This document shows positions 9,001-12,000 of a stretch of 41,475 bases of DNA, piece by piece; position 1 is the stretch's first letter; the number at the start of each line of letters is the position of its first letter. Position numbers: made by a program. This DNA comes from Shigella phage SfII. The DNA lies in sequence record NC_021857.1. One strand, written 5' to 3'.

Positions 9001-12000
9001 CAAACTGAAATCCGTCATTACCAGTAAGTACGGGCGTCACAAGCTTGCCAGCGACGGTACCCGCTTTGGTCCCGGTCAGGCGATTGTCACCCCGGCGGTA
9101 ATCAAAGGGGAACTGCTGGCAACCTACCGTCAGCTTGAGCGTGCGGGGATCGTGGAAAACTACGAACTGTTTAAGCAGTACCTGGTTGTGGAGCGTGATG
9201 CCAGCGATCCGAACCGCCTGAACACGCTGTTCCCGCCTGACTATGTTAACCAGTTGCGTGTTTTTGCCGTGGTTAACCAGTTCCGTCTTCAGTATTCAGA
9301 GGAGTCTGCATAATGGCCCGTATCGGGGGAACCTGTTATTTCAAAATTGACGGTCAGCAGCTATCGCTGACCGGCGGCATTGAGGTGCCCATGAACAGGA
9401 CGGTCAATGATGACATCATCGGCCTGGACGGTTCAGTGGACCGCAAGGAAACTCACCGTGCGCCTTATGTCAAAGGGACATTCAAGGTGCCGAAGAATTT
9501 TCCGGTGAGTAAAATCACCTCGTCTGATGAGATGACCATCACTGCCGAGCTGGCGAACGGTCAGGTCTATGTATTGTCGTCCGCCTGGCTGCACGGAGAA
9601 GCGAACCATAATGCCGAAGAAGGCACGGTTGATCTTGAGTTCCACGGTGAAGAAGGGGATTACCAGTAATGAAAGAGCTTGAGTTAAAGAAACCGATTAT
9701 CGCTCATGGTGAGACACTCTCCGTACTGGAGTTTGATGAACCCACCGGGAAGGATGTCCGCGAGCTGGGGTATCCCTACCAGATGAATCAAGATGAGTCC
9801 GTCAGACTTCTGGCGCATGTGGTGTCGAAATACATTGTGCGGCTGGCGAAAGTGCCGCAAAGCTCTGTCGACCAGATGTCTCCGGCAGACCTGAATGCAG
9901 CGGCGTGGCTTGTGGCTGGTTTTTTCCTCCAGGCCTGACGGCTGAATACCTCACTGATCGCTTCTTTGACTGCGCCAGCTACTGGCGCATTAATCCCTTC
10001 GAATTGCTGAATATGCCGATCAGTGAAATTCCCTTGCTGGTCAGTCAGGCAAACAGGATAGAGCAGGAGAAACGCACACATGGCTGAATTTGAGCTTAAG
10101 GCGTTGATCACCGGTGTCGACAGGCTTTCTCCCGCGCTGTCGAAAATGCAAAAGAAAATCCGGGGATTTAAACGCCAGGCGGAAGAAGCGTCACAGGGTG
10201 GGCTGGCGCTTGGTGGCGGACTGGCAGCTGGTCTGACGCTTTCCCTGAAATCTTATGCCGATCAGGAAAACGCCGCCACCGGGCTGAAAGTCGCCATGAT
10301 GGATGCGAACGGCGAGGTTGGAAAGAGCTTTCAGGACATCAATAAACTGGCTATTGGACTGGGTAACCAGCTACCCGGTACAACGGCTGATTTCCAGAAC
10401 ATGATGCAGATGCTGGTGCGTCAGGGGATCCCGGCAGAAAACATTCTGGGTGGTGTGGGTAAAGCGACAGCTTATCTTGCGGTACAACTGAAAAAAACAC
10501 CGGAAGCGGCTGCTGAGTTTGCTGCAAAGATGCAGGATGCTACCGGAACGGCGTCAGAAGACATGATGGGGCTGTTCGACACTATCCAGAAGGCGTTTTA
10601 TCTGGGCGTTGACGATACCAACATGTTGTCCTTCTTCACTAAAACCAGTTCTGTTCTGAAGATGGTGAACAAGGACGGTCTTCAGGCTGCACAGAGCCTT
10701 GCCCCCATCAGCGTCATGATGGATCAGATGGGGATGAACGGGGAGTCGGCAGGTAATGCACTGCGAAAAGTTATCCAGTCCGGATTAAGTGTTAAGAAAA
10801 TCAGGGACGTTAATAAAGTTATGGCCCGCCAGAAACTCGGGGTACAGCTCGATTTTACTGACGGCAAAGGAAGTTTTGGCGGTCTTGATAACATGTTCAG
10901 GCAACTGGCAAAGCTGCGAAAACTGACCGACGTTAAGCGAACAGGTGTACTTAAGGCAATATTTGGTGATGATGCCGAAACCCTTCAGGTGGTCAATGCA
11001 CTAATCGATAAAGGAAAGGATGGCTACGATCAGATCCAGCAGAAGATGAATAAACAGGCCAGCCTGAATAAACGTGTTCAGGCACAGCTTGGTACGCTGT
11101 CCAACCTGTGGGAGGCAATGACAGGGACCGCAACTAACGGCCTTGCGGCTATTGGCGGCGCATTTTCTGGTGACGCTAAAAATATCACGCAATGGCTGGG
11201 GGAGTTGGGGGAGAAATTCACGAAGTTTGCGGATGAAAATCCCCGGGTTATTCGCGGCGTCGTCGGGCTTGCTGCCGGTCTTGCGATTCTGAAACTGGGA
11301 TTGATGGGTGTTGGCGGTGCCATCAGTATTGTCAGCAGGATCATGTCGATGACGCCGATTGGCATGATTGCGACGGCGATAGCCCTGGCTGCGGGATTAA
11401 TTATCACTAACTGGGATGTTGTCGGACCTTATTTTAAGAAACTCTGGGAAACCATTGGTCCTTATTTTGAGGCTGGCTGGGAACTCCTTAAGAAAGTTTT
11501 TGCCTGGTCGCCGCTGGGGATGGTGATCAATAACTGGGGGCCGGTTGTTAAGTGGTTTCAGGATATGTGGGACAAGCTGAAGCCAATTATTGAGTGGTTT
11601 ACCGACAGTTCCGGTGACACGGTCGATGCCATTAACTCTGCGCAGTGGGGCGCGGGTGCTTATGATGCTTATGGGACGGGAATACCGGCGCGGGGATACA
11701 CACCTTATCCGGCGGTAGATCCGGCTCAGTCAAACAACGCCTCCGATGTCACAGGCCCGAACCCCTTCATGATTAACAAAGCTTCTGCGCCAAAAGTTGA
11801 TGGTGAGATCAAGGTCTCTTTTGTGAATTCGCCTCCGGGTATGCGGGTTATGGAAACGCGATCCAGCGGTTTTGATGTCAGCCATGATGTTGGCTATACG
11901 CGCTTTGGCAGGTAATGAAAAATTAATCTGTTAATGAGTCCCACTCCGGTGGGATTTTTTATGTACGGAGTTTATATGACGTGGAAAGACAGACTTCAGG

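What the first reader, a model, noticed from the sequence alone, without database searches (positions are those of the whole stretch)
9669..10087. Tail assembly chaperone pair with probable programmed translational frameshift
The 89-aa chaperone ORF and a 60-aa ORF in another frame overlap at 9905-9938 immediately upstream of the tape measure gene, the conserved architecture in which a frameshift yields an extended chaperone isoform.
Basis: inference. Interest (0 to 1): 0.25.

Follow-up and report, generated by a model that had tools for sequence, protein, structure and literature searches.

The report
Tail chaperone gene with -1 frameshift
This is the ordinary, well-known arrangement in which a phage tail-assembly chaperone gene makes a short and a long protein by a ribosome slipping back one base on a run of six T's; it is real here but not surprising, although public records of this phage group do not annotate it.

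Summary
An 89-aa ORF (9669-9938) and a 60-aa ORF in the -1 frame (9905-10087) overlap by 34 nt, between the tail tube gene (9313-9669) and the tape measure gene (10080-11915). The window is an SfII/SfV-type temperate phage with a Mu-like contractile tail.

The requested slippery heptamer exists: T_TTT_TTC at 9920-9926, in phase with ORF1 (GGT TTT TTC). The predicted product is join(9669..9926, 9926..10087), 139 aa and 15.8 kDa, alongside the 9.9-kDa short form.

- All 101 related loci (38-100% protein identity) keep T_TTT_TTY in phase.
- All keep a -1 frame open for 39-51 codons that ends at the tape measure start.
- Past the ORF1 stop, pN/pS is 0.25 in the -1 frame against 1.27 and 1.14 in the other two frames.
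- 53 of 82 distinct relatives have no start codon in the -1 frame upstream of the slip site.

ORF1 belongs to PF10109, the family of phage P2 gpE. P2's E/E+E' pair (91/142 aa) has an annotated -1 shift on TTTTTTG at the same profile position.

Verdict: an unannotated member of a known kind, of low interest. One loose end is a stable hairpin (9971-9989), conserved at synonymous sites, 44 nt downstream. That is too far for a canonical stimulator.

The parts
9313..9669 (+). Tail tube gene (118 aa). Its TAA stop overlaps the ATG of the chaperone gene by one base (TAATG).
   Evidence: PF10618 Tail_tube, E 2.4e-33; sequence
9669..9938 (+). Zero-frame tail assembly chaperone ORF (89 aa, 9.9 kDa). This is the short, majority product, equivalent to P2 gpE and lambda gpG.
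   Evidence: PF10109 Phage_TAC_7, 56.7 bits against cut-off 25; phrog_166 tail protein
9920..9926 (+). Slippery heptamer T_TTT_TTC (X_XXY_YYZ). The P-site codon is TTT 9921-9923 and the A-site codon is TTC 9924-9926. Both are read by tRNA-Phe, which can re-pair with TTT TTT at 9920-9925.
   Evidence: Sequence; in phase and invariant in 101/101 related loci; synonymous-site invariance
9926..10087 (+). -1-frame extension: 53 codons (PPGLTAEY...EKRTHG) plus TGA at 10085-10087. It is the E'/T-like C-terminal domain, reached only after the shift. The predicted long product is join(9669..9926, 9926..10087), 139 aa, 15.8 kDa.
   Evidence: phrog_32181, E 2e-41; pN/pS 0.25 in this frame against 1.27/1.14; conserved in all relatives
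9905..9907 (+). GTG that mechanically opens the '60-aa ORF'. It is not a conserved start, and no Shine-Dalgarno-like sequence lies upstream (GAATGCAGCGGC).
9971..9989 (+). Stable RNA hairpin UGCGCCAG-CUA-CUGGCGCA (8 bp) inside the extension, 44 nt 3' of the heptamer. It is conserved at synonymous sites in the SfV/SfII clade. Its role is unknown and it is probably not a canonical frameshift stimulator.
10065..10069 (+). AGGAG Shine-Dalgarno sequence for the tape measure gene, 10 nt upstream of its ATG
   Evidence: Sequence
10080..11915 (+). Tape measure protein gene (611 aa). Its ATG overlaps the end of the -1 extension (CATGGCTGA).
   Evidence: PF10145, E 1e-26

Best explanation
The region is a single tail-assembly-chaperone gene decoded in two ways.

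Most ribosomes translate 9669-9938 and release an 89-aa chaperone. A minority slip back one nucleotide, with tRNA-Phe in both the P site (UUU 9921-9923) and the A site (UUC 9924-9926). Both tRNAs re-pair with UUU UUU at 9920-9925. Translation then resumes at CCU (9926-9928) in the -1 frame and runs to UGA at 10085-10087. This yields a 139-aa protein with the same 86 N-terminal residues plus a 53-residue C-terminal domain.

By analogy with lambda G/GT and P2 E/E+E', the shared N-domain would coat the tape measure protein encoded just downstream. The extension would recruit the tail tube subunit encoded just upstream, so that the tube polymerises around the tape measure. Neither form is expected in the finished virion.

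Shown here: the ORFs, frames and phased heptamer; the family-wide conservation; coding selection on the -1 frame; and the absence of an independent start. Inferred: that slippage occurs at the ribosome, its efficiency (probably on the order of one to a few per cent), and the assembly function.
For: - The heptamer T_TTT_TTC is in phase at 9920-9926.
- All 20 genome loci and 80 viral loci (38-100% identity) keep T_TTT_TTY in phase. Their -1 frames stay open 39-51 codons past the ORF1 stop and end at the tape measure start. The +1 frame closes after a median of 4 codons.
- In 81 distinct ORF1 DNAs the codon before the P-site codon always ends in T, even when its amino acid changes (GGT 73, CGT 7, CAT 1). 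The P-site codon is TTT in 81/81 and the A-site codon is TTC in 80 and TTT in 1. Elsewhere in the same genes GGT is only 31% of Gly codons and TTT 56% of Phe codons.
- pN/pS past the ORF1 stop is 0.25 in the -1 frame against 1.27 and 1.14 in the other two frames.
- 53/82 distinct relatives have no start codon in the -1 frame upstream of the slip site.
- ORF1 belongs to PF10109, the P2 E / Mu gp41 family.
- The P2 record annotates E (91 aa) and E+E' (142 aa) with a -1 shift on TTTTTTG. In both P2 and this window the PF10109 match ends at profile position 78/79, exactly at the slip site.
- In E. coli, U_UU.Y is the second most shift-prone A-site tetramer. UUUUUUC is at least as good as P2's UUUUUUG: 0.12% against 0.118% without a stimulator, and 7.6% against 0.77% with the IS3 stimulator (PMC4066793 main text and supplement).
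- The two-product frameshift between the tail gene and the tape measure gene is described as conserved in long-tailed dsDNA phages, including Mu, P2 and lambda (PMC2628397, PMC3091744 and PMC5009743 citing Xu et al. 2004).
Against: - There is no experimental evidence for this phage group. None of the public records inspected annotates the long form: SfV, SfI, vB_EcoM-689R6, AH07, F1055 and RefSeq E. coli.
- No stimulatory element was found at canonical spacing. The first 94 nt downstream fold no better than shuffles (z -1.3). RNAalifold finds only a hairpin 44 nt away. No SD-like sequence lies 6-17 nt upstream (by eye).
- A bare UUUUUUC gave only 0.12% shifting in a reporter, so the real ratio is uncertain.
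- The extension does not match Pfam PF06528 (P2 GpE'), and its profile similarity to P2 E' and to the Mu extension is weak.
Confidence: 0.88

Rival explanations
1. Transcriptional slippage. RNA polymerase occasionally inserts an extra U while copying the T6 run, giving an mRNA in which ORF1 and the extension are in one frame. The protein would be identical to the ribosomal-frameshift product.
For: A homopolymer run is the substrate for both mechanisms, and the protein product cannot tell them apart. UUUUUUU and AAAAAAA are under-represented in all three frames in E. coli genes, which the authors attribute partly to transcriptional slippage (PMC4066793). One clade (L018/L019) has T7.
Against: From general knowledge, efficient bacterial RNA polymerase slippage needs runs of about 8-9 or more, and T6 is short. 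What is conserved is a phase-specific X_XXY_YYZ pattern ending in C/T, which matters for tRNA re-pairing. The run is never lengthened beyond 7 in 101 loci. The homologous P2 site TTTTTTG is annotated and described as a translational frameshift.
Confidence: 0.06
2. ORF2 is an independent small gene, translated from its own GTG at 9905 to give a free-standing 60-aa protein.
For: A GTG exists at 9905 and the ORF is listed mechanically. One phage record annotates it as a hypothetical protein. PHROGs has a family of such calls, phrog_32181. A few 53-70-aa proteins are called in metagenomes.
Against: The start is not conserved: 53/82 distinct relatives have no ATG/GTG/TTG upstream of the slip site, and three loci have no start anywhere in the -1 ORF. 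Yet the peptide is conserved from the first codon after the heptamer. No SD precedes 9905. All 'free-standing' calls begin within a few codons of the T-run. Only about 6 cluster representatives exist among 1.84 billion proteins.
Confidence: 0.03
3. The second ORF is a chance open frame, or a remnant that is never translated. Only the 89-aa chaperone is functional.
For: Gene callers and curated pipelines (PGAP, RefSeq phage records) leave 9939-10079 unannotated.
Against: pN/pS is 0.25 in that frame against about 1.2 in the others. The frame is open in 101/101 loci down to 38% identity. A 140-nt non-coding gap would be unusual in a tightly packed operon whose neighbouring genes overlap.
Confidence: 0.01

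Closest known systems
Phage P2 gpE / gpE+E' (FETUD tail operon; -1 frameshift on TTTTTTG)
   Same: - Both have the same Pfam family for the N-domain (PF10109).
- In both, the PF10109 match ends at profile position 78/79, exactly at the slip site.
- Both use a T6 run read as Gly-Phe-Phe/Leu.
- Product sizes are nearly identical: 91/142 aa in P2 against 89/139 aa here.
- The ORF1 stop lies a few codons after the slip in both.
- The extension ends at the start of the tape measure gene, between the tube and tape-measure genes of a contractile tail.
   Different: - The last base of the heptamer is C, not G. The A-site tRNA is therefore tRNA-Phe rather than tRNA-Leu, and re-pairing is better.
- The extension is not recognised by Pfam PF06528 (P2 GpE'). 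It is only weakly similar by profile comparison (P 0.004).
- The overall identity of the two long forms is not significant by BLASTP.
- The surrounding tail module is Mu-like, not P2-like.
Phage Mu gp41 tail assembly chaperone
   Same: The tail module has the same gene order and families: sheath L, tube M, chaperone, tape measure, DNA circulation protein, and baseplate gp44-48. Mu gp41 is named in the PF10109 family description. An extension ORF is present between gp41 and the tape measure gene.
   Different: Mu is reported to use a -2 shift rather than -1 (PMC2628397 and PMC5009743). Its site is G-rich (GGGGGCGA region), not a T run. Mu gp41 is longer (144 aa).
Phage lambda gpG / gpGT
   Same: This is the functional paradigm. 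Two products are made from one start, with a -1 shift near the end of the chaperone gene, located between the major tail and tape measure genes. The product ratio is critical, and neither product is in the virion (PMC5009743).
   Different: There is no detectable sequence similarity. Lambda's heptamer is G_GGA_AAG and its tail is non-contractile. The ratio (about 30:1) and the binding partners were measured for lambda only.

Membership tests
Frameshifted tail assembly chaperone pair (lambda G/GT type, Xu-Hendrix-Duda 2004) | Two overlapping ORFs lie between the major tail (tube) gene and the tape measure gene | tested here: met
   Tube gene 9313-9669 (PF10618), ORF1 9669-9938, ORF2 9905-10087, tape measure gene 10080-11915 (PF10145)
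Frameshifted tail assembly chaperone pair (lambda G/GT type, Xu-Hendrix-Duda 2004) | A slippery sequence, in phase with the upstream ORF, lies inside the region where both frames are open | tested here: met
   T_TTT_TTC at 9920-9926; it is the only in-phase heptamer there
Frameshifted tail assembly chaperone pair (lambda G/GT type, Xu-Hendrix-Duda 2004) | The downstream ORF has no translation start of its own but is conserved as protein | tested here: met
   53/82 relatives lack any start upstream of the slip site; pN/pS 0.25 in the -1 frame
Frameshifted tail assembly chaperone pair (lambda G/GT type, Xu-Hendrix-Duda 2004) | The slip site and two-frame arrangement are conserved among relatives | tested here: met
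   101/101 loci at 38-100% identity
Frameshifted tail assembly chaperone pair (lambda G/GT type, Xu-Hendrix-Duda 2004) | Both the short and the long protein are made in a fixed ratio, both are required for tail assembly, and neither is present in virions | not testable with these tools
   Needs western blot or mass spectrometry, and genetics in an SfII/SfV lysogen
Pfam PF10109 Phage_TAC_7 (P2 E, Mu gp41) | HMM score above the curated gathering threshold | tested here: met
   56.7 bits against cut-off 25, residues 4-86 matching profile positions 2-78 of 79
Pfam PF06528 Phage_P2_GpE (the E' extension of P2) | HMM match of the -1-frame extension | tested here: not met
   No hit even at E<=10, whereas P2 E+E' scores 76 bits. 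hhalign against P2 E' gives P 0.0036 and probability 9%, which is colinear but not significant. The extension belongs instead to phrog_32181, of unknown function.
Canonical bacterial -1 PRF signal with stimulator (dnaX / IS3 type) | A downstream hairpin or pseudoknot about 5-9 nt after the heptamer, or an SD-like sequence 6-17 nt upstream | tested here: not met
   The proximal 94 nt fold with z -1.3. The consensus fold finds only a hairpin 44 nt downstream. No GGAG/AGGA lies in 9903-9914. Phage chaperone frameshifts commonly lack such elements (PMC3091744).

The most novel reading that the evidence does not exclude
The hairpin at 9971-9989 is 8 bp and has dG of about -14 kcal/mol. It is conserved at synonymous sites and sits at a fixed 44-nt distance from the heptamer. 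It could be a functional RNA element of this chaperone gene. One possibility is an unusually distant modulator of frameshift efficiency. Another is an element that protects or regulates the sparsely translated 140-nt stretch ahead of the tape measure gene. Either would be a feature not described for tail-chaperone frameshift sites.
Probability: 0.15. Interest if true: 0.4.

Novelty: new member of a known kind. Interest (0 to 1): 0.15.

Why it matters
This mostly matters for annotation. The phage group is common: the region was found in 1085 of 5426 complete E. coli genomes, and it also occurs in the Shigella serotype-converting phages SfII, SfV and SfI. Yet the records I inspected either leave about 140 nt unannotated or call a spurious 60-aa 'hypothetical protein'. 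The correct feature is a joined CDS with ribosomal slippage, as in the P2 record.

It also adds a clean comparative example. Within one Pfam chaperone family (PF10109), the slip position is fixed while the mechanism varies: U_UUU_UUC here, U_UUU_UUG in P2, and -2 in Mu. Nothing here changes current understanding of tail assembly or recoding.

Tried and rejected
- **Structure prediction.** The AlphaFold2 model of the 139-aa product from a single sequence was too poor to use (mean pLDDT 46), so no fold search was run.
- **Solved structures.** A sequence search of the PDB gave only spurious weak hits to light-harvesting proteins.
- **NCBIfam.** It has no model for either ORF or for the fusion.
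- **Rfam.** No family matched in 9500-10300.
- **Promoters and terminators.** None was found between ORF1 and the tape measure gene.
- **First viral-contig scan.** It returned only 100%-identical copies. A second scan led by a distant relative gave the useful diversity.
- **P2 gpE scan.** A viral-contig scan with P2 gpE returned only 99-100% identical loci, so a family-wide hairpin could not be tested by covariation.
- **P2 and Mu hairpins.** The hairpins I saw by eye in the P2 and Mu extensions are not better than shuffled sequence (26/200 and 107/200). I therefore dropped the idea of a hairpin shared across the whole PF10109 family.
- **Apparent natural fusions.** The fused 137-139-aa proteins in the protein database (P0001-P0003) differ from the prediction by local frame errors around the T-run and elsewhere. 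They are singletons from short contigs, so I read them as assembly indels and not as evidence.
- **Literature.** Xu et al. 2004 (Mol Cell) and Christie et al. 2002 (J Bacteriol) are not in the held library. I could not check whether SfV was already listed there. What I cite of them is second-hand through PMC2628397, PMC3091744 and PMC5009743.
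Full report
**What is there**

The window is an SfII/SfV-type temperate phage genome. 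Region 9313-10400 is 98.5% identical to phages SfV and SfI, and the gtrII region is 100% identical to SfII.

The tail module is Mu-like:
- sheath, 7817-9313
- tube, 9313-9669 (PF10618)
- tape measure, 10080-11915 (PF10145)
- DNA circulation protein, followed by baseplate gp44/45/J/gp48 homologues

One is 9669-9938 (89 aa, ATG). The other is 9905-10087 (60 aa, GTG), in the -1 frame relative to the first, with a 34-nt overlap. ORF1 is a significant member of PF10109 'Phage tail assembly chaperone proteins, E, or 41 or 14' (56.7 bits, cut-off 25). ORF2 matches no Pfam or NCBIfam model. It matches only phrog_32181, of unknown function.

**The slippery site**

The sequence 9915-9938 reads GCT GGT TTT TTC CTC CAG GCC TGA in the ORF1 frame. 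T_TTT_TTC at 9920-9926 is therefore a correctly phased X_XXY_YYZ heptamer. It is the only one in the stretch where the zero and -1 frames are both open.

After a -1 slip, decoding resumes at CCT (9926). This gives 86 + 53 = 139 aa, MKEL...LVAGFF|PPGLTAEY...EKRTHG, or 15.8 kDa against 9.9 kDa for the short form. The extension's TGA (10085-10087) overlaps the tape measure ATG (10080). The tape measure gene has its own AGGAG at 10065-10069.

**Is it more than chance?**

A T6Y run alone is not rare in this window: 43 on both strands. The case rests on comparison.

I collected 20 loci from distinct bacterial species (38-100% protein identity; Shigella, Edwardsiella, Citrobacter, Pantoea, Kosakonia and others, down to Derxia). 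I added 80 diverse viral contigs.

- In all 101 loci, including the window, T_TTT_TTY is in phase.
- In all of them the -1 frame stays open 39-51 codons past the ORF1 stop and closes at the tape measure start.
- The +1 frame closes after a median of 4 codons.

Among 81 distinct ORF1 DNA sequences:
- The codon preceding the P-site codon is GGT (73), CGT (7) or CAT (1). It always ends in T, even when the amino acid changes.
- The P-site codon is TTT in 81/81.
- The A-site codon is TTC in 80 and TTT in 1.
- Elsewhere in the same genes GGT is only 31% of Gly codons and TTT only 56% of Phe codons.

These sequences are phylogenetically related, so no exact probability is claimed. The direction of the evidence is nonetheless unambiguous.

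**The -1 frame is coding but has no start of its own**

I compared ten distinct, gaplessly alignable relatives over the part beyond the ORF1 stop. There pN/pS is 0.25 in the -1 frame, against 1.27 and 1.14 in the other two frames, with pS of 0.62. The peptide is conserved from the first codon after the heptamer, with the consensus P.GLTA..L....FDCASYWRINP.ELL..P.S...LL..QANRIE.

Yet 53 of 82 distinct relatives have no ATG/GTG/TTG in the -1 frame upstream of the slip site. Three loci have none in the whole -1 ORF. The window's GTG at 9905 has no Shine-Dalgarno sequence and is confined to close relatives.

An exhaustive HMMER scan of 1.84 billion representatives found only about six small called proteins like ORF2. 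Each begins a few codons upstream of the 'FF' encoded by the T-run in the -1 frame. They are calls of the same overlapping ORF, not free-standing genes.

**Comparison with known systems**

The RefSeq record of P2 annotates E (91 aa) and E+E' (142 aa, joined CDS, 'site of -1 translational frameshift'). The site is GGT TTT TTG. P2 E and the present ORF1 both match PF10109 up to profile position 78 of 79, and in both the match ends at the slip site. The slip site is thus at the homologous position of the same domain family.

The extension differs. P2 E' matches PF06528 at 76 bits, while the present extension does not match at all. Profile comparison gives only a colinear, non-significant alignment, with P 0.0036 to P2 E' and 0.0015 to the Mu extension.

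Mu has the most similar tail module but is reported to use a -2 shift (PMC2628397; PMC5009743). Its site is G-rich.

Literature held in the library describes the two-product frameshift as conserved among long-tailed dsDNA phages. It also gives the lambda model: the G domain binds the tape measure protein, and the T domain binds the major tail subunit (PMC5009743; PMC3091744).

**Mechanism and efficiency**

Tandem tRNA-Phe slippage on U_UUU_UUC is the most economical reading. In E. coli reporters the A-site tetramer hierarchy is A_AA.G > U_UU.Y > C_CC.Y > A_AA.A (PMC4066793). The reporter values for -1 frameshifting are (supplement of PMC4066793):

| Heptamer | No stimulator | IS911 stimulator | IS3 stimulator |
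|---|---|---|---|
| UUUUUUC (this window) | 0.12% | 0.89% | 7.6% |
| UUUUUUG (P2) | 0.118% | 0.25% | 0.77% |
| GGGAAAG (lambda) | 0.28% | 3.8% | 43% |

The review cited above describes lambda's native ratio as about 30:1. It says P2-type sites are 2- to 3-fold more efficient. Reporter values without native context therefore underestimate the real rate, and I expect something of the order of one to a few per cent here. This is an inference.

I found no stimulator at canonical spacing. The 94 nt after the heptamer fold no better than shuffles (z -1.3). The consensus fold of 17 relatives has no proximal helix. No SD-like motif lies upstream. Phage chaperone sites often lack stimulators.

**An unexplained detail: the distal hairpin**

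The consensus fold picks out one hairpin, UGCGCCAG-CUA-CUGGCGCA at 9971-9989, 44 nt after the heptamer.

- Alone it folds at -14.2 kcal/mol, with z = -4.85 and 0 of 200 shuffles as stable.
- In the ten relatives with near-saturated synonymous divergence, the codons TGC GCC AGN TAC TGG CGC are invariant at every synonymous site except the loop base. The flanking codons vary freely.
- Across 32 sequence variants, covariation is weak: 6 cells with double changes, 13 of 500 shuffles as high, and an A-U replacing the closing G-C in some.
- A sister clade (DCAKYWK/N) has lost the hairpin while keeping the slip site.

The hairpin is therefore real and locally constrained, but it is not required for the frameshift architecture. 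It is also too far away to act as a classical stimulator. Similar-looking hairpins in P2 and Mu are not better than chance.

**Annotation status**

None of the records inspected annotates the long form. These are SfV, SfI, vB_EcoM-689R6, Pantoea phage AH07, Salmonella phage F1055 and RefSeq E. coli annotated by PGAP. They either leave 9939-10079 empty or call the 60-aa ORF 'hypothetical'. The region occurs in 1085 of 5426 complete E. coli genomes. The SfIV genome paper does not contain the word 'frameshift'. I could not read Xu et al. 2004 to see whether SfV is already listed.

**Verdict**

This is an ordinary, unannotated member of the well-known frameshifted tail-assembly-chaperone kind, closest to P2 E/E+E'. 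Confidence in the -1 ribosomal frameshift is 0.88 and interest is 0.15.

Noticed in passing
window 9971-9989 (+): An 8-bp G+C-rich hairpin (UGCGCCAG-CUA-CUGGCGCA) lies inside the -1 extension, 44 nt after the slippery heptamer. It has z = -4.85 against shuffles. Its synonymous sites are invariant in 10 diverged relatives, and only the loop base varies. Covariation is weak, and the hairpin is lost in one sister clade. Its function is unknown.
   Followed up: partly
window 9939-10079; L001 (SfV), L002, L003, L104, L105: Public annotations of this phage group (SfV, SfI, several E. coli, Pantoea and Salmonella phages, PGAP-annotated E. coli prophages) do not carry a joined or ribosomal-slippage CDS. 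The stretch is left empty or called a 60-aa hypothetical protein. The region is present in 1085 of 5426 complete E. coli genomes.
   Followed up: yes
relatives L008, L013, L020-L022 and others (20 of 101 loci), at the position equivalent to window 9917-9923: Some relatives have GCG/TTG GGT TTT TTC, which creates a second in-phase heptamer G_GGT_TTT overlapping T_TTT_TTC. In those phages two adjacent slip positions would give almost the same product. The window itself (GCT GGT) lacks it.
   Followed up: no
proteins P0001-P0006 (database hits to the predicted fusion): A few singleton metagenome and read-archive assemblies encode 'fused' 107-139-aa versions. Their frame changes lie at or near the T-run and at other homopolymers. 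They look like assembly or sequencing indels, not natural fusions.
   Followed up: partly
protein P0124 (hit to ORF2 in the representative library): This is a 216-aa predicted protein made of four tandem copies of a unit of about 51 aa (MWGLTASYMRDKVKLQSVGWRIIPHGLLGEPIGHLL...). The unit is 42% identical to the -1 extension. Its origin and meaning are unknown, and it may be an assembly artefact.
   Followed up: no
window 18806-19855 (-) and 20308-21498 (+): An acyltransferase-3 family gene (349 aa) and an IS4-family DDE transposase (396 aa) sit between the tail-fibre assembly gene and the O-antigen glucosylation genes gtrII-gtrB-gtrA (21888-24633, -). The gtrII part is 100% identical to phage SfII. 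The acyltransferase/IS segment has no counterpart in the phage collection.
   Followed up: partly
window, whole: T6Y runs are about twice as frequent as in dinucleotide shuffles (43 against 23.8, 0 of 100 shuffles as many). They cluster in the A+T-rich 19.6-23.4 kb gtr/IS region. On the + strand of the structural module (1-18000) there are only three: at 80, 2686 and 9920. No tRNA gene is present in the window.
   Followed up: no
L003 (E. coli GE3, NZ_CP012376) locus tags: Locus tags jump from AKN41_RS11800 (chaperone) to RS11790 (tape measure). This suggests a previously called gene in the gap (RS11795, probably the 60-aa ORF) was dropped on re-annotation.
   Followed up: no
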